Virus genome (UHGV): UHGV-0315882
Source: a virus
Length of the DNA stretch: 56,283 nt
Direction: 5' to 3' (one strand)
The notes under the pieces were generated by a model. It was not told the origin of the DNA. It worked only from the letters and a program-made list of their open reading frames with translations, and did no database searches. Below, one piece after another: positions 4,032-37,389 of the stretch (position 1 is its first letter; each line of letters begins with the position of its first letter). The position numbers and the translations under genes are program-made.

Positions 4032-4817
4032 TTAGTTCTTTGCGTCTAAGAAGGTAAGCTCTGGTGAAGAGAAAACCGTCTCGATATCCTCATCAGTTCT
4101 TGCATAGATGTAAGCATCTGCATCACTGCCAAATGTTACTGCAATCCTGTGATTGCTCTTCGACAGGTGGGTAACTAGAGCGTTACTTAGAGACATCTTT
4201 TCAACCGGAGGGTTACTTTGATGTATCTTGCCTTTTCTTCGTCTGAAGAGGGTAACTACATCATTAGTGAACACTACTACACCAGCAAAGTATTCTGGTT
4301 CACAGTAGTTCTTCCAACCTGAGCGTAACTTGTGGTACATCTCTCCTTCATAGACATACAGATACACATCTACACTCTTCATCACCTGATTAATGATGAC
4401 TGTGACGGCTTGAGAGTCTAGTCCACCGATACCTGCACCAATCATAGGTAACCCAACTTTCTTCAACTGATTGACTTCACAGTATCTGTTAAGTTGTTTC
4501 AAAGATGATTCTAAAGCACTGTATCGGGCATCTTTACCAGTCTTAAGCTGAGTGTAAAGGTTAGCTATACGGCCTTGTTCTAAACGTGCTACAGAGAAAT
4601 TGCCTAGTAAATTTTCACAGGGTTTGTGACCTATGCCACCTGCATACAGATAAACTTCTGTATCGGTCTCATATGCTTTTGGGTAAAGTTTAGAAATCTT
4701 GTCAGCGATACCTGCACCCATTAAGTTCATACAGTTGCAACCGTGACCAATGATATCAAACTTACCTTTATCAAATGCGGAGAAGATATCCCCATTGATG
4801 ATTTTTACAATACCCAT
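4032..4817 (-). CDS. TARG1/OARD1-like macrodomain protein with unknown C-terminal domain (261 aa)
   Basis: N-terminal ~150 aa carry GDIF...HGCNCMNLMGAGIA...LPMIGAGIGGLD, matching TARG1-type macrodomain hallmarks recalled from memory; GGGAGAGA RBS. Confidence 0.6.
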   Translation of the reverse strand: MGIVKIINGDIFSAFDKGKFDIIGHGCNCMNLMGAGIADKISKLYPKAYETDTEVYLYAGGIGHKPCENLLGNFSVARLEQGRIANLYTQLKTGKDARYSALESSLKQLNRYCEVNQLKKVGLPMIGAGIGGLDSQAVTVIINQVMKSVDVYLYVYEGEMYHKLRSGWKNYCEPEYFAGVVVFTNDVVTLFRRRKGKIHQSNPPVEKMSLSNALVTHLSKSNHRIAVTFGSDADAYIYARTDEDIETVFSSPELTFLDAKN

Positions 4818-11935: not shown

Positions 11936-12251
11936 ACTCACCTCTCATATTTTTGTAAAGGATAAAGCTTCTGTCATGAACGATACTTGTAGATACTGCA
12001 AAGTTACTTTCAAGCATCTGTTTGTTTGGATTGTAGAAGCTTTCTTTAAACTCGTCAAGTGCAAACTGGTGATGTTGTGGAAGACCTTTTACACAAACCT
12101 TTATTGTGATTGCTGCTGCAACCTTTCCAGTCAGTTCTTCTTTAGCTGCTACTAAAATTTTGTTGAGGAACTTATGGCCATCTTCAGGCTTCTTGATGTT
12201 CTCCCAACGTTCTTCTAAGATAATGTTGATGTTCATTTCTTTGATTTTCAT
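11916..12251 (-). CDS. hypothetical protein (111 aa)
   Basis: ORF downstream of terminator 12269-12291. Confidence 0.5.
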   Translation of the reverse strand: MKIKEMNINIILEERWENIKKPEDGHKFLNKILVAAKEELTGKVAAAITIKVCVKGLPQHHQFALDEFKESFYNPNKQMLESNFAVSTSIVHDRSFILYKNMRGESCKHIG

Positions 12252-12268
12252 AGTCTTCTCCAGAAATT

Positions 12269-12291
12269 AAAAAGGCTCCCGTAGGAGCCTC
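12269..12291 (-). terminator. Intrinsic terminator
   Basis: GGCTCC-cgta-GGAGCC followed by a T-run on the minus strand. Confidence 0.6.
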
Positions 12292-12304
12292 TTATCATAT
12301 ACTT

Positions 12305-14086
12305 TTAAAGCTGCTTGTCAATATTATTTCGAATATCGCCAAGAGTTGTGTAGCCAAACTGCTCAGAGTCGCTAAAGACTAAACGTAAAGCACAAGCTGG
12401 ATGTTCAAGTGCATCTGCAAAGCTCTGGAATCCATAGCCATCTACAGCTTTCAATTTATCACCATCCCACATAGGCGCTACACCACCAAAGGCAGACTTC
12501 TTCACACCACTATCTGTTTTAGGGTCTTTTGCAAGCATAATCTCCTTACCACCAATGCTTGCAAGAGTTGCTTTGACAGCAAATGCAAAGGTGTCACGAG
12601 TCATGTACTGGTAAGTGTAAGAGCCTACACCAAACACTACGTTAGAGCTTGCAAAACCCATTTCATACAAACGCTTCAATATTTCGTTTGCACGTTCCAA
12701 CGTGATAGAGTCACCATAAATAAGTCCGATGTGCTCATCCAGTACTTTAAAACCTTTGGAGTTGATAGTCCCTCCGAAGATGTTATACAGGGTCTTAATA
12801 GCTCCATCAATCTCTGCTACAGGACGTGTTACAACGTTTGCAGAACCAACCATATAAGCATTCTTCAGCAGTACTGTATCAGCAACTTCAAAGTCTTCTC
12901 GGTCAACAACCATTTCGTAGCCTTCTGACAGTAGCCATCCAGCAATACCATAGTTGATGTTTTCAAGCTTCATGTTCAGAACAGATTTCAGCATTGTATC
13001 ACTAGCTTCCAGCTTGCTAAGATGTTCATAATAAGCCTTCTTAGCACATTCTAAGTGGATTGCTTTATAACCTGTGACAATATGCACAGGGTCTCCAGAG
13101 TCAGGACGAATTACCAGCTTGCCGTCACGTTCCATAATCTCTTTACGGAGTTCTGGCAGTATCACTGATACAGTTCTCCAGAAGTTATAAGTATCTGAAA
13201 CAATACTTGCAATACCCGTTGGGTAAGTTTCTGTTAAGAAACGACGGAAGGTTTGTAACTCACCTTTAAAGCGTCTTTCTTCTTCAATCAATTCGTTACC
13301 ACCTTCCCAAGCAATGTTTGCACACATTACAGAGTGCTCAGTGGCTGGTACAGAGCTACCAATATCAGAGACTGGGTAAGACTGTCCGTAGATGCGTTTA
13401 GCTGTATATACGGCAGGGAAGCTATCAGTTCCTTTAAAGCTGGTCAAGTGGCCTACAGCATTAAATGCGTCATCAGTAAAGCCGGACATACCACGCATAG
13501 CAAAGTCATGGCACTGATAAGGCAAATGCAAGTCGTTATCACAAGTAAGGTCAGCCCACTTCTTACAGATACGTTTGTAGTGCAATGCAATAGTTGCAAT
13601 GGTACAAGCCTTCCAAATCTCAGCAGAGAAAGCATCTTCCAGATAACCTGCTACCCAATGGAAACCTGAAACAGTGTTCTGGAAAACAATCATTGGGACA
13701 CGCATAGGGACAACTGTGCCTTCTTCTACAGCGTATACTTCAACTGGTAGATAACCTAAGTCGTGAAGTGCTTCCCAATGCTCTCGACCGATAGCATCTT
13801 TACCAAGAACACCATTCATGACTTCTAAGATTTCGTCAATTGCTTCTTTTTTATCACGTTCAAAGAAAGTGGCATTCCAGTGGTCTATCAAGTAATCTTT
13901 AACAAAACGTTGAATACCAAAAGCCACTACACCGTCAATTGCTAAAGGGCTGTTAAACCATTTATCACTACGTGGTGTCAGGTTGAACATCAAGTACTCT
14001 GTTGCGCTAGGATACTGGTAAACATGACCAGATTTGTAAGCATCTGCATTTAAACCTGCTGGTACTGCATAAAGTGATTTAGTCAT
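12305..14086 (-). CDS. NAMPT-family phosphoribosyltransferase (593 aa); nicotinamide phosphoribosyltransferase or Namat-like ADPR transferase
   Basis: N-terminal DAYKSGHVYQYP matches the NAMPT/NAPRT signature; length and collinearity fit the family. Confidence 0.8.
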   Translation of the reverse strand: MTKSLYAVPAGLNADAYKSGHVYQYPSATEYLMFNLTPRSDKWFNSPLAIDGVVAFGIQRFVKDYLIDHWNATFFERDKKEAIDEILEVMNGVLGKDAIGREHWEALHDLGYLPVEVYAVEEGTVVPMRVPMIVFQNTVSGFHWVAGYLEDAFSAEIWKACTIATIALHYKRICKKWADLTCDNDLHLPYQCHDFAMRGMSGFTDDAFNAVGHLTSFKGTDSFPAVYTAKRIYGQSYPVSDIGSSVPATEHSVMCANIAWEGGNELIEEERRFKGELQTFRRFLTETYPTGIASIVSDTYNFWRTVSVILPELRKEIMERDGKLVIRPDSGDPVHIVTGYKAIHLECAKKAYYEHLSKLEASDTMLKSVLNMKLENINYGIAGWLLSEGYEMVVDREDFEVADTVLLKNAYMVGSANVVTRPVAEIDGAIKTLYNIFGGTINSKGFKVLDEHIGLIYGDSITLERANEILKRLYEMGFASSNVVFGVGSYTYQYMTRDTFAFAVKATLASIGGKEIMLAKDPKTDSGVKKSAFGGVAPMWDGDKLKAVDGYGFQSFADALEHPACALRLVFSDSEQFGYTTLGDIRNNIDKQL

Positions 14087-14104
14087 CTTTTAATCTCTCT
14101 TAAA

Positions 14105-14124
14105 ATGGGGCTTGGAAGCCCCTA
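14105..14124 (-). terminator. GC hairpin with U-run between the Prs-like and NAMPT-like genes
   Basis: GGGGCTT-gg-AAGCCCC followed on the minus strand by ATTTTAAG; preceded by TTTATA. Confidence 0.45.
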
Positions 14125-14131
14125 TAAAGTT

Positions 14132-15028
14132 TTAATCAAGGTTTGCTACAGTAACTTGGCTATAATGTGTTAAGCCACGGTCTTTAGCTTCCCCTAAAGA
14201 GTTTGTAGTGTAGATATGGTCAATACCATTGTCAAGAAGGTTTTCAACATCTTTAGAGAAGATACCATGTGTTACATAGAGTTCCACTCGTTTTGCACCT
14301 GCTTCACGAAGATGTTTAGCTGCTTCTATGAAGGTTCGTCCTCCATCACAAATATCATCCAGAATCATGACGGTTTTATCTGTCAAATCAACATCGTCAA
14401 GGATTCGCATACCAGTGATTTCACCAGTCTTGAGGTTGCGTACTTTAGACATTGTGATATATGGTTTATCCACCTCTTTAGCGGTTTCTGCAACCTTCTT
14501 AGCAGCACCTGCATCTGGGGCCACTAAGTAATCAACCAGTGGGTCATTTGCATAGTGGACTGCAATCTCCTTTTGAGGAATACTCTGGAAGCAGTTAAAC
14601 AGGTTATCTGGAACGTAACTGTGAGGGTCAACTGCACAGACTGCACCAAACCCCATTGCATTAACCTGTTTAGCAAAAACCTTCAAAGCTGCTGCATCGC
14701 CTTTAAACATGTGACGGTCATATCGTGCATTTGGTAAGTAGTAAAAGATGACAGTCTTTAAAGCATAATCATGAGGAATTAAATCATCAATTGCTTCTTT
14801 AGCAAGTGCTACAGCAAACAATGTGTCTTTATCATAACCTTTTACAATCATAATCACATTGTTGATGGATGATGCAGCATAAGCAGTAAAATCAACAAAC
14901 TCTGGTGAAAAGTGTCCACCAATCTCACCAGAAGGAAATTGGATGATGTTAAACTCTTCTTCATGAGTTCCTTTAGTTGGTGAATGAACTGTAACACGTA
15001 TAGATGTTTTCATAATTTTCTCTCTCAA
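14132..15028 (-). CDS. Ribose-phosphate pyrophosphokinase (Prs) family protein (298 aa); PRPP synthetase or ADPR-PP synthetase (Adps)-like
   Basis: Type I PRTase/PRPP-binding motif VMILDDICDGGRTF; size fits Prs. Confidence 0.8.
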   Translation of the reverse strand: MREKIMKTSIRVTVHSPTKGTHEEEFNIIQFPSGEIGGHFSPEFVDFTAYAASSINNVIMIVKGYDKDTLFAVALAKEAIDDLIPHDYALKTVIFYYLPNARYDRHMFKGDAAALKVFAKQVNAMGFGAVCAVDPHSYVPDNLFNCFQSIPQKEIAVHYANDPLVDYLVAPDAGAAKKVAETAKEVDKPYITMSKVRNLKTGEITGMRILDDVDLTDKTVMILDDICDGGRTFIEAAKHLREAGAKRVELYVTHGIFSKDVENLLDNGIDHIYTTNSLGEAKDRGLTHYSQVTVANLD

Positions 15029-15303
15029 TCAAAAGTTACGTTAGTTACTGCCATTGCAGACTTGCATTTCACAGGGTCTACAACGTGATAAAGTACACTA
15101 CAGTTTCCTGTACTATCTGGCACAGGCTTTACCCATTGCTGTTTGACAGTTGGTTCTCCTAAGTCTTTGTAAGAACCATCTGTATAATTATTTACCATCT
15201 CAAGTGCAATTGGCTCTGGGACATGACCACGTATCATGTACATTTCACAACCATTACCACCTTCACTGACTAATGATAAAATCTCCCACTTTTCTTTAGC
15301 CAT
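15025..15303 (-). CDS. hypothetical protein (92 aa)
   Basis: ATGA overlap with the upstream gene. Confidence 0.5.
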   Translation of the reverse strand: MAKEKWEILSLVSEGGNGCEMYMIRGHVPEPIALEMVNNYTDGSYKDLGEPTVKQQWVKPVPDSTGNCSVLYHVVDPVKCKSAMAVTNVTFD

Positions 15304-15811
15304 TGTAAGTTGCCCTATAAACTATCTCGAACTTCAACAGGAGAGATATTGCCAAATCTGTATAGTTGTTGTCAAGCACATCTGGCATATTATTTTTGAT
15401 ATATCTCTCTTGCTCTTCATAGGTCATCTTAGGGGTACTTAAAAGACTATCTCCTTGCTTCTGGTTATCAGCTTTAGTCTGAATAAACCAGTTTGTACAG
15501 TGATGTTCACCACCTTTTGTAACAGGTTTGTGGTGGCCTAATGTGAAGGATTGACTGCCTGTGTATCTGCAAAGTTTATTGAGTACTGTAATGGTGTTCT
15601 TCACAACAAAGCATTCATACAGGTTGTCTATGGTGTAGTGTGGGTAATATCGAAATAATGCTCTTTCACGAGTACTCTCACGATTCCAGAGAATCATGTG
15701 ATTGGAGTTGGAAGGGTCGTATTGGTGGGAGTCAATGAACTCTTGACGTTCCTCAAAACTGAGTCTTAACACTGACATTGCAGCAGAACGTTTCAGATTT
15801 GACAGATACAT
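15296..15811 (-). CDS. hypothetical protein with possible HNH-nuclease-like motif (171 aa)
   Basis: GHHKPVTKGGEHHCTNW...KADN resembles an HNH core (HH, GG, N); weak. Confidence 0.35.
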   Translation of the reverse strand: MYLSNLKRSAAMSVLRLSFEERQEFIDSHQYDPSNSNHMILWNRESTRERALFRYYPHYTIDNLYECFVVKNTITVLNKLCRYTGSQSFTLGHHKPVTKGGEHHCTNWFIQTKADNQKQGDSLLSTPKMTYEEQERYIKNNMPDVLDNNYTDLAISLLLKFEIVYRATYNG

Positions 15812-15823
15812 ATTATCTCCAAA

Positions 15824-15852
15824 ATAAAAAGGGAACCTTTACAGTTCCCTTA
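15824..15852 (-). terminator. Intrinsic terminator
   Basis: GGGAAC-ctttaca-GTTCCC followed by a T-run on the minus strand. Confidence 0.6.
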
Positions 15853-15862
15853 TAGTATCTGC

Positions 15863-16183
15863 TTACTGAGCTACTTTCAAGATTCTTGTGAATGGAATTT
15901 CACTTTCTTCCATTAACTCTTTAGTTTCTTTGGTAACTTTCACAAAGTTATCTAGGCAGATAATCTTCTTATCTTTCTTGCTATAGGTTAATTTAACCTT
16001 TTCAATATCTTTCTCAGAGCTTTTCTCTTCATTGAAGAGTTTTACAGCCTCTTTGAATGGGAGATATGAGCCATCATTATCACTAATGAATCCTGTACCA
16101 CAATAGTAGGAGTTATGCTCTCTAGCCATAAACTGGCACAGTAAGAAAATCTGTAATTTACGAGTGTTATAAACTTTGCTCAT
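15863..16183 (-). CDS. hypothetical protein (106 aa)
   Basis: ORF followed by a terminator. Confidence 0.5.
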   Translation of the reverse strand: MSKVYNTRKLQIFLLCQFMAREHNSYYCGTGFISDNDGSYLPFKEAVKLFNEEKSSEKDIEKVKLTYSKKDKKIICLDNFVKVTKETKELMEESEIPFTRILKVAQ

Positions 16184-18341: not shown

Positions 18342-20486
18342 TTACATAGAAACTCTGTCACGAATCTCAGCGATTTTTGCATCGTTCATTCGGGATTCAC
18401 CTTTAATCTTAGTCCATCCAAGATACCCACACACCCTGTTAATCACAGAGATATCATGTGAGTGACAAACTTCACACTCTTCAACATCTGATTTTGGTCT
18501 GTTACCACAATGCTCACAGATTGCTAAGTCAAAGTTAAGTCCCTGATAGAAACCTTTCAACATCCCTCTTGTAATACAGCTCTTAAGTGCTGATAAGTTT
18601 TCTGGGTTAGCTACTCTTACATACTGGATTCTACCGCCTCTACAGATATGGAAGAATGGTTCTTCTAAGTCCTGCTTCTCAAATGGTGAGATGTCTGCTG
18701 CAACATTCATATGGAAACTGTTTGTAAAGTATTCCTTGTCAGAAACGCCTTTGATAACGCCAAACATATCTCTGAACTGTTTTAGTTGAGTTCCGCAAAG
18801 TGATTCTGCTGGAGTACCATAGACGGCATATAAGAAGCCATCTTCATTTTTAAACTCTTCGGTTTTCATGTTAATGTATGCCAGAACATCATATGCAAAA
18901 CTATAGCTTCCAACTTCATGCAGTCGTTTACCTTCAGCAAGAACAGACAACTCATCAAGCGCAGTAACACCAAAAGAAGCTGTGAAGGACTTCACAATAT
19001 CCCAACCAACCTTGTCAGTAGGTTTCTTAGTTCCTTTGTACAGACCACCTTGTGTGAATGCAAGAGGGTTAGAGCTTGCTGGCATATTAGCAATCATTTC
19101 GTAGCGTTTCTTATGGAAACTACGAATCATCTCTAGGTACTTATCAAGCTCTTTCCAGAAATCTAAGCCATTCTCTTTAGAATACTGGTAAATCATTGGT
19201 AAGTTCAAAGATACAGCACCAATGTTAGCACGACCAACGTAGAACTCTTCTCCACCCTCATTAAGATATGGAGATAAAAAGGCTCTGCAACCCATCGGTG
19301 AAATTACCTTACCAGAACGCTCAAAAGCCTCTGCTACAGCACCATGACCAGACACACTTAAGAAATCTGGGTACATTGCTTTAGAGCAACACTCAATAGC
19401 TTTACTGTACAGGTGACCTTGACAGATATTTTCATCATGTCTCTTCTGGTCATAAATATAAACCAGTTTAGGGAATACAACAGGTTTTTTGCTCTTGCCT
19501 TGTCCATTCATACGAACATCTAGGAGAGTACTTGCAATCATGTATTGTAGTCGATTATCCTCATTAGACATATCTGAGTCAAGTAAACCAAATGTTAAAG
19601 TTGTGAATGCAAAATCACCACGGCTACAAGGTACGGTATTTAGTTTCATCTCAAGTGACTGAAAACCTTGAGTCAGTTCAATTTGTAACTGCTCCATTAC
19701 ATAATTGTGGTAATGCTCTTTAGGAATACCATAAGATGATGCTTTCTCAGCATGATAGCGTAGAGACTTCTTAGCATACGGTACAAGTACCTTATCAATC
19801 TCTGCTAAAGTAAAACCACCAAATTGCTGTGCAGTTGCTGAAAGTACTACGTCACCAATAACCTGCAACGCTGACAGTACAGATTTAGGTTCACAGTACT
19901 CAATGCCGGACATTTCAAAGCCGCCTTTTAGTACTTTACCAATGTCAAACAGGCAACAGTTAATACCACCAAAAATCAGGTCTCTCAAATCGTGGATATA
20001 GATAAAGCCTTTCTCAATGGCTTCAAGTTCCTCTGGTGTTAGATGATACTGTTTAAAGATTTCTTTAGTCAGGTAACCACGGATAATTGAACCTTTCGTA
20101 GAAATTAAACTGCTGTCAAAGTTAGCATTTTCACGGTCACCTAAGAAGAGTGTGTCTCTAGTCTTTTGGTAAAGTTCATCCCAATTTTGAGCAACCTCTT
20201 TACGGTAATTTCTGTATGTTGAGTAAGACTCATAAATCTCGTGATTGACCTCTGCCAAAGCACCTTCAACAATACTGTGAATATCGTTTACCGAAATTAG
20301 TAAATTATTCTGTTTAGTAGATTTTACCAGAATCCTCATAAATGCTGACTCAAGAGCTTGAGTAACATCTGGTGGGAGTTCTTTATACCCAACCCTATTA
20401 GCTGACTTTGTGACTGCTGCTAAAACTTTTTTGATATCAGGTTCTTCGAGTGAGCCATTCTTTTTAATAATCTGTACTTTGTTCAT
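18342..20486 (-). CDS. nrdD: Anaerobic ribonucleoside-triphosphate reductase (class III)
   Basis: C-terminal glycyl-radical motif RVCGYLG and CxxC...CxxC zinc site; 714 aa. Confidence 0.9.
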   Translation of the reverse strand: MNKVQIIKKNGSLEEPDIKKVLAAVTKSANRVGYKELPPDVTQALESAFMRILVKSTKQNNLLISVNDIHSIVEGALAEVNHEIYESYSTYRNYRKEVAQNWDELYQKTRDTLFLGDRENANFDSSLISTKGSIIRGYLTKEIFKQYHLTPEELEAIEKGFIYIHDLRDLIFGGINCCLFDIGKVLKGGFEMSGIEYCEPKSVLSALQVIGDVVLSATAQQFGGFTLAEIDKVLVPYAKKSLRYHAEKASSYGIPKEHYHNYVMEQLQIELTQGFQSLEMKLNTVPCSRGDFAFTTLTFGLLDSDMSNEDNRLQYMIASTLLDVRMNGQGKSKKPVVFPKLVYIYDQKRHDENICQGHLYSKAIECCSKAMYPDFLSVSGHGAVAEAFERSGKVISPMGCRAFLSPYLNEGGEEFYVGRANIGAVSLNLPMIYQYSKENGLDFWKELDKYLEMIRSFHKKRYEMIANMPASSNPLAFTQGGLYKGTKKPTDKVGWDIVKSFTASFGVTALDELSVLAEGKRLHEVGSYSFAYDVLAYINMKTEEFKNEDGFLYAVYGTPAESLCGTQLKQFRDMFGVIKGVSDKEYFTNSFHMNVAADISPFEKQDLEEPFFHICRGGRIQYVRVANPENLSALKSCITRGMLKGFYQGLNFDLAICEHCGNRPKSDVEECEVCHSHDISVINRVCGYLGWTKIKGESRMNDAKIAEIRDRVSM

Positions 20487-36970: not shown

Positions 36971-37180
36971 ATGAGCCACCGTGGAAGAACCCATGCAGCG
37001 ATGATGAAAGGTGCTTCAAAGGAGACTATCAAAAATCGTAAGCAGAAGTTGTTTGAGAGAATGAACAGGTTAATTGACAATTCATCTCTTTCAGGTTCTG
37101 AGAAGGTTTTCTTGAAAGGGAATCTGAAAAGTATTGCACAGGAACTTATGGATATTGAATTTTGGAGAAACCAAAAATGA
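36971..37180 (+). CDS. hypothetical protein (69 aa)
   Basis: AGGAGGG RBS upstream. Confidence 0.5.
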   Translation: MSHRGRTHAAMMKGASKETIKNRKQKLFERMNRLIDNSSLSGSEKVFLKGNLKSIAQELMDIEFWRNQK

Positions 37181-37389
37181 CTTATGAAGAAGCTGTTGAA
37201 GCAATGAAGCAAGGTAAGAAGGTTCGTAATGAGAACTTCACATCTGATGAGTTCTTTGAAATGAAAGATGGAAAGATTGTCTGTGAAATGGGTTACCCGA
37301 TGGCTTCATGGTATCGTGGTCTTGATTGGCAGAAATCTGGGTGGAGCATTGTGCAAGACTCTCCAAAAGCATCTGACTTATTCTTTTAA
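37177..37389 (+). CDS. DUF2829-like small protein (71 aa)
   Basis: Start at MTYEEAVEAMKQGKKV with GGAGA RBS and ATGA overlap; N-terminal motif resembles the DUF2829 family hallmark as recalled from memory. Confidence 0.4.
   Translation: MTYEEAVEAMKQGKKVRNENFTSDEFFEMKDGKIVCEMGYPMASWYRGLDWQKSGWSIVQDSPKASDLFF

What the first reader, a model, noticed from the sequence alone, without database searches (positions are those of the whole stretch)
12305..15028. Adjacent NAMPT-family and Prs-family genes: candidate NAD+ reconstitution pathway (NARP1-like)
A 593 aa NAMPT-family protein (DAYKSGHVYQYP) sits directly downstream of, and on the same strand as, a 298 aa PRPP-synthetase-family protein (VMILDDICDGGRTF). 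Established knowledge: phage pairs of this kind can act as Adps (ADPR-PP synthetase) plus Namat (nicotinamide-ADPR transferase), rebuilding NAD+ from ADP-ribose and nicotinamide after NAD+-depleting immunity (Thoeris, DSR, SIR2-HerA, SEFIR). The alternative is a classical Prs plus NAMPT salvage pair. Either way it is an NAD-centred auxiliary or counter-defence module inside a nucleotide-metabolism block.
Basis: partly seen in the sequence, partly recalled or inferred. Interest (0 to 1): 0.8.

Follow-up and report, generated by a model that had tools for sequence, protein, structure and literature searches.

The report
Known phage NAD+ rebuilding operon (NARP1)
These two adjacent phage genes match the already published NARP1 pair (Adps plus Namat), first found in the closely related phage Bas63, which rebuilds NAD+ from ADP-ribose and nicotinamide after bacterial immunity destroys it; the finding is real and correctly read, but not new.

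Summary
Two co-oriented minus-strand genes lie at 14132..15013 (Prs-like; 293 aa from the real ATG, not 298) and 12305..14086 (Nampt-like, 593 aa).

The window is a Felixounavirus. NARP1 was discovered in genes 79-80 of phage Bas63 (JohannRWettstein), which belongs to the same genus. The window genes sit at the same syntenic position as those two genes. The Nampt-like protein is 98% identical to Bas63_0080. The Prs-like protein is 78% identical to Bas63_0079.

The window's Adps allele is about 99% identical to the phage wV8 entry in that paper's homolog table, which is marked as Namat-associated.

The Namat keeps every catalytic residue and the Namat-specific adenine "selectivity clamp" (GSYTYQYMTRD, K-W loop). 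The Adps groups with the validated Adps proteins and apart from canonical Prs (bootstrap 100/100). It keeps the catalytic K-x-R motif but has an altered ribose-5-phosphate loop. No NMN adenylyltransferase is in the window, so this is not NARP2 or classical salvage.

Verdict: the NARP1 reading is supported, and the system is already known. Public annotations still call the genes Prs and NAMPT.

Side observations:
- The Adps N-terminal half is a recombinant allele.
- Namat carries an undiscussed ~85-aa insertion.
- A distal Adpp-like Macro-domain gene lies ~7.5 kb away.
- One small ORF gives a weak Tad2-like hit.

The parts
14132..15013 (-). adps: ADP-ribose pyrophosphate synthetase (Prs-family), 293 aa, first NARP1 enzyme
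   Evidence: ORF; ATG start fixed by alignment with Bas63. 78% identical to Bas63_0079 and 100% to phage KEP1. It is about 99% identical to the wV8 entry in the NARP paper's Table S1, marked 'Namat within 10 genes: Yes'. It lies in the Adps clade with bootstrap 100/100. K190-x-R192, R97-x-D99-R100, H131 and D219-D220 are conserved. The AF2 model has pLDDT 94.4 and a full Prs fold, TM about 0.75.
12305..14086 (-). namat: nicotinamide ADP-ribose transferase (Nampt-family), 593 aa, second NARP1 enzyme
   Evidence: 98% identical (582/593, no gaps) to Bas63_0080. The best PDB matches are 9w5w/9w5x (deposited as nicotinamide phosphoribosyltransferase; sequence matches SPbetaL1 Namat) at E 1e-128. 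All core residues named for SPbetaL1 Namat are conserved, as are the SCH motif GSYTYQYMTRD and the Bas63-type K-W SCL loop.
14107..14122 (-). conserved hairpin GGGGCTT-NN-AAGCCCC in the 45-nt adps-namat spacer, followed by ATTTTA; role unknown (possible attenuator or RNA-stability element)
   Evidence: Sequence. The stems are identical in Bas63 while the loop differs (CC versus GA). It did not meet the terminator scan's T-run criterion.
12270..12293 (-). terminator-like hairpin (10 bp, 5 GC, T-run) starting 12 nt after the namat stop codon; likely 3' end of the transcription unit
15025..15811 (-). two small upstream genes of unknown function (171 aa at 15296..15811; 92 aa at 15025..15303), probably co-transcribed with adps-namat (inferred)
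   Evidence: The two genes overlap by 8 nt, and the 92-aa gene stops 11 nt before the adps ATG, which leaves no room for a promoter. They match phrog_3500 and phrog_4726, both of unknown function. They are not linked to NARP1 outside this subfamily.
15829..15880 (-). promoter-like site (TTGAAA-17-TACTAT) directly followed by a terminator-like hairpin, upstream of the 171-aa gene; candidate 5' boundary of the unit (consensus match only)
   Evidence: conserved in Bas63.

Best explanation
This is NARP1 (NAD+ reconstitution pathway 1) of a Felixounavirus. When an NAD+-depleting defence system (SIR2-HerA/Nezha, type I Thoeris, DSR1/2, SEFIR and others) cleaves NAD+ into ADP-ribose and nicotinamide, Adps (window 14132..15013) transfers pyrophosphate from ATP to the 1'' position of ADP-ribose, giving ADPR-PP. 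Namat (12305..14086) then replaces the pyrophosphate with nicotinamide and regenerates NAD+ directly, without passing through NMN or host salvage enzymes. Shown for close relatives: the Bas63 operon phenotype, ADPR-PP in infected cells, and the SPbetaL1 enzymology and structures. Shown here: the match to the Bas63 operon (identity and synteny), conservation of catalytic and specificity residues, and clade placement. Inferred: that the window's own proteins, including its divergent Adps N-terminal allele, have the same activities.
For: The window is a Felixounavirus. It is syntenic with Bas63 from NrdD/NrdG through rIIA/rIIB. Namat is 98% identical to Bas63_0080 and Adps 78% identical to Bas63_0079. 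In Bas63, deleting genes 79-80 gave about 20-fold fewer plaques on SIR2-HerA and deeper NAD+ depletion. [quoted passage not shown] ADPR-PP (m/z 720.010) appeared only with the wild-type phage plus the defence system. wV8 carries a near-identical Adps allele and is listed in the paper's Table S1/S2 as Namat-/Adps-associated. Namat conserves D13, Y15, F189, R192, D215, H245, R306, D308, G360, D361, G390, R399 and D400 (SPbetaL1 numbering). It also has the Namat-only motif GS-Y-T-Y-Q-Y-M-TRD and the K-W SCL, whereas a KVP40-type Nampt has GGGLLQQLDRD. Adps groups with Bas63 and SPbetaL1 Adps and apart from canonical Prs, bootstrap 100/100. Like the validated Adps proteins, it stays far below every Prs equivalog cutoff in NCBIfam. 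Both Adps halves are under purifying selection, omega 0.16 and 0.06. No NMNAT or Nudix domain is in the window.
Against: Nothing was measured for this particular phage. The Adps N-terminal ~180 residues are only about 68% identical to the tested Bas63 protein. The in-vitro enzymology was done on SPbetaL1 proteins that are 30% (Adps) and 48% (Namat) identical. SPbetaL1 Namat retains PRPP-to-NMN activity in vitro, so some classical activity cannot be excluded. No Adps structure exists, so the residues that recognise ADP-ribose are unknown and could not be checked. My Prs reference set for the tree was small: E. coli plus Actinobacteria.
Confidence: 0.93

Rival explanations
1. Classical salvage pair: the Prs-like enzyme makes PRPP from ribose-5-phosphate, the Nampt-like enzyme makes NMN from PRPP + nicotinamide, and host NadR/PncC finishes NAD+.
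For: Every database and GenBank record names the genes this way. Namat passes the NCBIfam 'nicotinate phosphoribosyltransferase' equivalog cutoff. The Adps model has the full Prs fold. SPbetaL1 Namat can make NMN from PRPP in vitro.
Against: [quoted passage not shown] The adenine-binding clamp motif is present. Adps is outside the canonical Prs clade and has a changed ribose-5-phosphate loop, DGGRT instead of DTGGT. NCBIfam cannot separate Namat from Nampt, because both pass the same model, so the database names carry no weight.
Confidence: 0.03
2. NARP2-type pathway: a Nampt working with a phage NMN adenylyltransferase, as in Vibrio phage KVP40, with the Prs-like enzyme only boosting PRPP supply.
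For: The Nampt-family fold is shared, and only 56 kb of a roughly 87-kb genome is visible.
Against: No CTP_transf_like/NMNAT or Nudix domain was found in about 87 window ORFs. The 49-kb Bas63 stretch inspected, which covers most of this window's region, has no product named NMNAT or Nudix. Felixounavirus Namats are labelled 'Adps-associated' in the paper's Table S2. KVP40-type Nampt is only 27-38% identical (27.5% by tblastn, 38% in the alignment) and lacks the clamp aromatics.
Confidence: 0.02
3. The window-type Adps allele (N-terminal half replaced by recombination) has shifted substrate or regulatory properties relative to the tested Bas63 allele, for example a different ADPR derivative, different kinetics, or escape from a host factor that targets Adps.
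For: In codons 1-180, dS is 1.39, against 0.27 in the adjacent namat. Two allele classes coexist in the genus, about 155 versus about 90 records, and FelixO1 looks like a further mosaic by inspection of its Table S1 sequence.
Against: All catalytic motifs are identical between the alleles. Omega is 0.16, which indicates purifying and not diversifying selection. Mosaicism of this kind is common in phage genomes.
Confidence: 0.07

Closest known systems
NARP1 of Escherichia phage JohannRWettstein (Bas63), genes bas63_0079/0080 (the discovery system; bioRxiv 10.1101/2024.02.11.579819)
   Same: Same genus, same syntenic slot between NrdG and rIIA, and same gene order. Namat is 98% identical, including both insertions and the K-W/GSYTYQYMTRD clamp. 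The spacer hairpin and flanking hairpins are conserved.
   Different: Adps is only 78% identical because the 5' ~540 nt belong to a different allele. The small gene bas63_0081 downstream of namat is absent from the window.
NARP1 of Bacillus phage SPbetaL1 (biochemically characterised Adps/Namat; Namat crystal structures described in PMC12774641)
   Same: All Namat residues that contact nicotinamide, the NMN ribose-phosphate and the AMP moiety are conserved or conservatively replaced (F392 to Y). The Adps catalytic Lys (K162 in SPbetaL1, K190 here) and RxDR are conserved.
   Different: Identity is 48% for Namat and 30% for Adps. The window Namat carries an insertion of about 15 aa and one of about 85 aa that SPbetaL1 lacks. 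The SCL uses K-W instead of R40. The Adps ribose-5-phosphate loop is DGGRT versus SFGGT. The SPbetaL1 genes abut, whereas here there is a 45-nt spacer with a hairpin.
NARP2 (Vibrio phage KVP40 NadV + NatV) and cellular Nampt
   Same: Nampt fold and catalytic core, including the catalytic His and R306/D308 equivalents.
   Different: No NMNAT partner in the window. The SCH-equivalent of the KVP40-like enzyme is GGGLLQQLDRD, without the adenine-stacking aromatics. Identity is only 27-38%.
Canonical ribose-phosphate diphosphokinase (Prs, EC 2.7.6.1)
   Same: Complete two-domain Prs fold (TM about 0.75 to human PRPS1 and E. coli Prs), with the RxDR, His131, PDxG, K-x-R and DD motifs.
   Different: About 21% identity. 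A separate clade (100/100). The Thr of the 5-phosphate loop DTGGT is lost (DGGRT), and a Cys precedes the Asp in all 77 aligned homologs of the window Adps (SPbetaL1 has Ser there). The protein is shorter (293 versus 315 aa). It scores 124 bits against 533 for E. coli Prs on Prs models.
NARP1-AP (Adps-Adpp-Namat of Vibrio phage Gary; bioRxiv 10.64898/2026.01.28.702374)
   Same: The core Adps and Namat. The phage also encodes a Macro-domain protein that aligns end to end with Adpp (27% identity, E 6e-14).
   Different: No Macro gene lies within the operon or within ±2 genes. The Macro gene is about 7.5 kb and about 14 genes away, has an extra ~100-aa C-terminal region, and belongs to a broad T4 Tk.4-type family also found in phages without NARP1.

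Membership tests
NARP1 (Adps + Namat) | Adjacent, co-oriented Prs-family gene followed by a Nampt-family gene in a phage genome | tested here: met
   45-nt spacer.
NARP1 (Adps + Namat) | Correspondence (identity plus synteny) to an experimentally validated NARP1 operon | tested here: met
   98% and 78% identity and full synteny with Bas63 genes 79-80.
NARP1 (Adps + Namat) | The Prs-like protein falls in the phage Adps clade, separate from canonical Prs | tested here: met
   NJ tree and 100/100 bootstrap, with a small Prs reference set. A near-identical allele (wV8) is listed in the paper's Table S1 with a Namat neighbour.
NARP1 (Adps + Namat) | Adps catalytic lysine (SPbetaL1 K162 = B. subtilis Prs K197) | tested here: met
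   K190 in the K-x-R motif is invariant in 77 homologs.
NARP1 (Adps + Namat) | Namat catalytic core (F189, D215, H245, R306, D308 and others, SPbetaL1 numbering) | tested here: met
   All are invariant in alignment A2.
NARP1 (Adps + Namat) | Namat selectivity-clamp helix motif GS-X-Phi-X-Phi-X-Phi-TRD with aromatic X | tested here: met
   The window has GSYTYQYMTRD. The KVP40-type Nampt has GGGLLQQLDRD. The motif is defined.
NARP1 (Adps + Namat) | Selectivity-clamp loop with a stacking residue (Arg, or Lys/Tyr followed by the stacking residue) | tested here: met
   TPRSDKWFNSPL, a K-W identical to Bas63. The rule is given.
NARP1 (Adps + Namat) | Enzymatic activities: ADPR + ATP to ADPR-PP, then ADPR-PP + nicotinamide to NAD+ | not testable with these tools
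   Shown only for SPbetaL1, DyoEdafos and P. foliorum proteins.
NARP1 (Adps + Namat) | Counter-defence phenotype against NAD+-depleting systems | not testable with these tools
   Shown for the Bas63 counterpart, not for this phage.
Canonical Prs (ribose-phosphate diphosphokinase) | Reaches curated equivalog-level score of Prs models | tested here: not met
   105 bits or less against equivalog cutoffs of 296-536. Only the broad TIGR01251 subfamily model is passed (124.5 against 113). E. coli Prs scores 533 bits on NF002320, a subfamily-type model with cutoff 297.
Canonical Prs (ribose-phosphate diphosphokinase) | Ribose-5-phosphate 5-phosphate loop D-T-[GA]-G-T | tested here: not met
   The window has D-G-G-R-T, and the Adps-like clade has D-[GA]-G-[RG]-T.
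Canonical Prs (ribose-phosphate diphosphokinase) | Two-domain Prs fold | tested here: met
   AF2 pLDDT 94.4; Foldseek TM about 0.75 to PRPS1 and E. coli Prs. The fold does not discriminate Adps from Prs.
NARP2 / classical Nampt salvage | Partner NMN adenylyltransferase (NatV-type) encoded by the phage | tested here: not met
   No such domain in about 87 window ORFs. Only 56 kb of the genome is visible.
NARP1-AP (with Adpp phosphatase) | Macro-domain gene inside or within two genes of the NARP1 operon | tested here: not met
   No Macro hit in the flanking genes. A distal Macro gene exists at 4032..4817.
NARP1 + RyDEP | RyR-domain glycosidase gene in the NARP1 locus | tested here: not met
   No RyR-domain hit in any window ORF. 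The system is described.

The most novel reading that the evidence does not exclude
The Felixounavirus Macro-domain protein at window 4032..4817 (the bas63_0095 counterpart) may act as a distally encoded Adpp, an ADPR-1''-phosphate phosphatase. It aligns end to end with characterised Adpp and carries an extra C-terminal domain. If so, it would feed NARP1 and make these phages resistant to aRES-type NAD+ phosphorolysis. The published ±2-gene screen could not have seen such a dispersed NARP1-AP. Together with the weak Tad2-like ORF at 37177..37389, this would make the phage's NAD-centred counter-defence a dispersed multi-gene set and not a two-gene operon.
Probability: 0.15. Interest if true: 0.5.

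Novelty: already known. Interest (0 to 1): 0.15.

Why it matters
The main practical value is correcting annotation. Every public record, and the Pfam, PHROGs and NCBIfam models, still label these genes ribose-phosphate pyrophosphokinase and nicotinamide or nicotinate phosphoribosyltransferase. NCBIfam cannot separate Namat from true Nampt. Recognising the pair as NARP1 predicts that this phage, like most of its genus (widely used in typing and therapy sets), resists SIR2-, TIR-, DSR- and SEFIR-type NAD+ depletion. It should remain sensitive to aRES unless the distal Macro protein supplies Adpp activity. The coexistence of two Adps N-terminal alleles in one genus gives a natural experiment on which part of Adps determines ADP-ribose recognition, for which no structure exists.

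Tried and rejected
1. I looked for known NARP1 accessory genes (Macro/Adpp, RyR/RyDEP) next to the operon. None lies within ±2 genes.

2. I looked for an NMNAT or Nudix partner (NARP2) anywhere in the window. There is none.

3. I tested whether the two small upstream genes are conserved NARP1 companions. The 92-aa gene is confined to Ounavirinae. The 171-aa gene has ~40% homologs in rV5/phi92-like phages, but in EmilieFrey it is not near NARP1. I rejected this idea.

4. I tried to identify the ~85-aa Namat insertion. It has no PDB sequence match and no Pfam match, and the structural paper does not discuss it.

5. I tried to identify the C-terminal ~100 aa of the Macro protein. Only a noise-level PH hit appeared.

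6. Fold comparison of the Adps model cannot separate Adps from Prs, because no Adps structure is in the PDB.

7. The Tad2-like ORF is below the Pfam threshold and matches solved Tad2 structures only at E about 1. I left it as a lead.

8. No tRNA genes are in the window.

Full report
**Observation.** One search confirms two minus-strand ORFs at the stated coordinates. A Prs-like ORF lies at 14132..15028 and a Nampt-like ORF at 12305..14086.

The listed 298-aa length comes from a mechanical TTG start that overlaps the stop codon of the preceding gene. Alignment with the closest annotated relative puts the real start at the ATG at 15013 (MKTSIRV...), 11 nt after that stop. This gives 293 aa.

The two genes are separated by 45 nt. 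Family assignment is far beyond chance. Pfam gives NAPRTase at 1.7e-34 plus NAMPT_N, and Pribosyltran plus Pribosyl_synth. PHROGs gives phrog_448 at 8e-202 and phrog_619 at 9e-97.

**What the window is.** Megablast of the region finds 259 phage records, nearly all Felixounavirus (FelixO1/wV8-like). The best match is 95.9% identical at the nucleotide level.

The gene order matches phage JohannRWettstein (Bas63). NrdA, NrdB, glutaredoxin, NrdD and NrdG come first, then small genes, then the Prs-like and Nampt-like genes. More small genes follow, then rIIA, rIIB and polynucleotide kinase. The claim of a nucleotide-metabolism block is therefore correct.

[quoted passage not shown] Its findings on Bas63 were:
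- Deleting the operon reduced plating about 20-fold on SIR2-HerA and deepened NAD+ depletion.
- ADPR-PP (m/z 720.010) appeared only with wild-type phage plus the defence system.

The enzymology was done with the SPbetaL1 homologs. In the Bas63 record (MZ501086.1), bas63_0079 and bas63_0080 are exactly the syntenic counterparts of the window genes.

The window Namat is 582/593 identical (98%) to Bas63_0080 with no gaps. The window Adps is 229/293 identical (78%) to Bas63_0079.

The lower Adps figure does not reflect decay. The 5' ~540 nt of adps are 60-80% identical to Bas63, while the flanks are above 90%. Synonymous divergence there is 1.39, against 0.27 in namat. Omega is 0.16 in the N-terminal half and 0.06 in the C-terminal half. 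This is the pattern of an allele acquired by recombination and kept under purifying selection.

Both alleles are common in the genus. The window type is at least 93% identical in about 155 records, with KEP1 at 100%. The Bas63 type is about 77% identical in about 90 records. By inspection of its Table S1 sequence, FelixO1 looks like a further mosaic of the two.

A near-identical allele (phage wV8, about 99% identical to the window protein) is already in the NARP paper's Table S1, with tree representative KhF3 and "Namat within 10 genes: Yes". The wV8, FelixO1 and Bas63 Namats are labelled "Adps-associated" in Table S2.

**Defining residues of Namat.** The structural study of SPbetaL1 Namat (PMC12774641) lists the contacts with nicotinamide, NMN and AMP. 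It also defines a Namat-specific "selectivity clamp". One part is a helix motif, GS-X-Phi-X-Phi-X-Phi-TRD, whose aromatic X residues stack on adenine. The other is a variable loop that contributes Arg, or Lys/Tyr followed by the stacking residue as in Bas63.

In my alignment all core residues are invariant. The window helix motif is GSYTYQYMTRD and the loop is ...SDKWFNSPL..., identical to Bas63. The KVP40-type Nampt of phage VH7D has GGGLLQQLDRD. The best PDB sequence matches are 9w5w/9w5x at E 1e-128; these are deposited as nicotinamide phosphoribosyltransferase and their sequence matches SPbetaL1 Namat.

**Defining residues and placement of Adps.**
- The catalytic Lys is present as K190 in a K-x-R motif (SPbetaL1 K162, B. 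subtilis Prs K197).
- RxDR, His131, PDxG and the DD pair are also present.
- K190, R192 and D219/D220 are invariant in 77 homologs.
- The ribose-5-phosphate loop differs from canonical Prs. Prs has DD[ML]IDT[GA]GT. The window and its homologs have DD[IL]CD[GA]G[RG]TF, and SPbetaL1 has DDLSSFGGTF.
- In an NJ tree the window protein groups with Bas63 and SPbetaL1 Adps and other phage proteins. This group is separate from E. coli and actinobacterial Prs, with bootstrap 100/100. The Prs reference set was small.
- In NCBIfam, the window, Bas63 and SPbetaL1 Adps score 106-138 bits on the broad Prs subfamily model and far below every equivalog cutoff. E. coli Prs scores 533 bits.
- The AF2 model (pLDDT 94.4, pTM 0.90) superposes on human PRPS1 and E. 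coli Prs over the full two-domain fold, with TM about 0.75 and about 20% identity. Fold does not discriminate Adps from Prs, and no Adps structure is in the PDB copy.

**Rival readings.** Classical Prs + Nampt salvage is contradicted by three things: the Bas63 genetics, the clamp motif, and the clade placement. The database names carry no weight, because true Nampt and validated Namat pass the same NCBIfam model.

NARP2 requires an NMN adenylyltransferase. No such domain, and no Nudix domain, occurs in the roughly 87 window ORFs scanned. Only 56 kb of the genome is visible.

**Extended NARP1 variants.** Two are known. NARP1-AP adds a Macro-domain ADPR-1''P phosphatase in the operon (10.64898/2026.01.28.702374). 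The other adds the RyR-domain glycosidase RyDEP (10.64898/2026.05.28.727677). Neither gene is in or next to this operon.

**Anatomy of the locus.**
- A strong terminator-like hairpin begins 12 nt after the namat stop codon (12293..12270).
- The adps-namat spacer holds a hairpin, GGGGCTT-NN-AAGCCCC, whose stems are conserved in Bas63 while the loop differs.
- The adps ATG lies 11 nt after the stop of a 92-aa gene, which overlaps a 171-aa gene by 8 nt.
- The next terminator-like or promoter-like module upstream is at 15880..15829 and is conserved in Bas63.

I infer that adps and namat are transcribed together with these two small genes. The small genes are not NARP1 companions in other phage groups.

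**Side observations.**

- *Macro-domain protein.* A 261-aa protein at 4032..4817 is the counterpart of bas63_0095 "putative phosphatase" (phrog_335). It aligns end to end with characterised Adpp of Vibrio phage Gary (27% identity, E 6e-14). Its Pfam Macro score and its top PDB relatives are the same as Adpp's, and it has an extra ~100 aa at the C-terminus. The aRES study screened only ±2 genes around NARP1 and lists no Felixounavirus, so this gene was outside its screen. However, the family is broad: 2,809 phage records, including T4 Tk.4-type genes in phages without Adps. The link to NARP1 is therefore only a lead.

- *Namat insertions.* Relative to SPbetaL1, the Namat carries an insertion of about 15 aa and one of about 85 aa (window residues ~343-427). 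Both are nearly identical in Bas63 (three substitutions in the longer one). Neither has a recognisable family, and the structural paper does not discuss them.

- *Tad2-like ORF.* A 70-75-aa ORF at 37162..37389 gives a sub-threshold, N-terminal-only match to Pfam Tad2-like.

- *Differences from Bas63.* bas63_0081 is absent from the window, and the window nrdD lacks the endonuclease-bearing insert annotated in Bas63.

**Verdict.** The system is already known; it corresponds to the prototype operon. Interest is therefore low. The residual value lies in re-annotation, the natural Adps allele pair, and the untested Macro lead.

From my own knowledge, not from a tool: the NARP preprint was later published in Nature in 2024, and T4 itself encodes no Prs/Nampt pair.

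Noticed in passing
window 4032..4817 (-): A 261-aa Macro-domain protein (counterpart of bas63_0095 'putative phosphatase', phrog_335). It aligns end to end with the characterised NARP1-AP phosphatase Adpp of Vibrio phage Gary (27% identity, E 6e-14) and has an extra ~100-aa C-terminal region with no family match. It lies about 7.5 kb and about 14 genes from namat on the same strand, outside the ±2-gene screen of the aRES preprint. The family is broad (T4 Tk.4-type, 2,809 phage records), so any link to NARP1 is unproven.
   Followed up: partly
window ~14470..15013 (-) (adps codons 1-180): The 5' half of adps is a different allele from Bas63: 60-80% nucleotide identity against more than 90% in the flanks, dS 1.39 against 0.27 in namat, and omega 0.16. 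Two allele classes coexist across the genus, and FelixO1 looks like a further mosaic by inspection of its sequence. This fits recombinational allele exchange under purifying selection.
   Followed up: yes
window ~12806..13060 (-) (Namat residues ~343-427) and ~13270..13330 (-) (residues ~253-272): Namat carries an insertion of about 85 aa and one of about 15 aa relative to the crystallised SPbetaL1 Namat. Both are nearly identical in Bas63 (three substitutions in the longer one). Neither has a Pfam or PDB sequence match, and the structural paper's text does not mention them.
   Followed up: partly
window 37162..37389 (+) (probable ATG at 37177): A small ORF (MTYEEAVEAMKQGKKVRNENF...) with a sub-threshold Pfam Tad2-like match (Thoeris anti-defense 2; 22.4 bits against a cutoff of 25, N-terminal 32 of 73 profile positions). 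Solved Tad2 structures appear only at E about 1. phrog_3474, unknown function.
   Followed up: partly
window 14107..14122 (-): Hairpin GGGGCTT-CC-AAGCCCC in the adps-namat spacer. The stems are conserved and the loop differs in Bas63. It may tune the relative expression of the two genes.
   Followed up: partly
window 12270..12321 (-) and 15829..15880 (-): A repeated intergenic module: a sigma-70-like promoter match, followed immediately by a GC-rich hairpin with a T-run, then a ribosome-binding site and the next gene's ATG. It occurs at both ends of the putative unit containing NARP1.
   Followed up: no
window ~12249..12257; locus L001 6836..7180: The small gene bas63_0081 (114 aa, hypothetical), located between namat and the next gene in Bas63 and some relatives, is absent from the window. 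This is a presence/absence polymorphism right after the NARP1 terminator.
   Followed up: partly
window 18342..20486 (-); locus L002 21631..24517: The window nrdD is a single uninterrupted 714-aa ORF. In Bas63 nrdD is annotated as two joined pieces with a putative homing endonuclease (bas63_0068) inside.
   Followed up: no
window 12305..15013; all matching GenBank records: All public annotations, and Pfam, PHROGs and NCBIfam, name these genes Prs and nicotinamide or nicotinate phosphoribosyltransferase. NCBIfam NF006629 is passed equally by validated Namat and by true Nampt, so automated pipelines cannot recognise NARP1.
   Followed up: yes
proteins P0071-P0109: Adps-like proteins about 48% identical (over roughly 62% of the query) occur on megabase-scale Cronobacter and Superficieibacter chromosomal contigs. 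These are bacterial or prophage NARP1-like copies, in line with published reports of bacterial NARP1.
   Followed up: no
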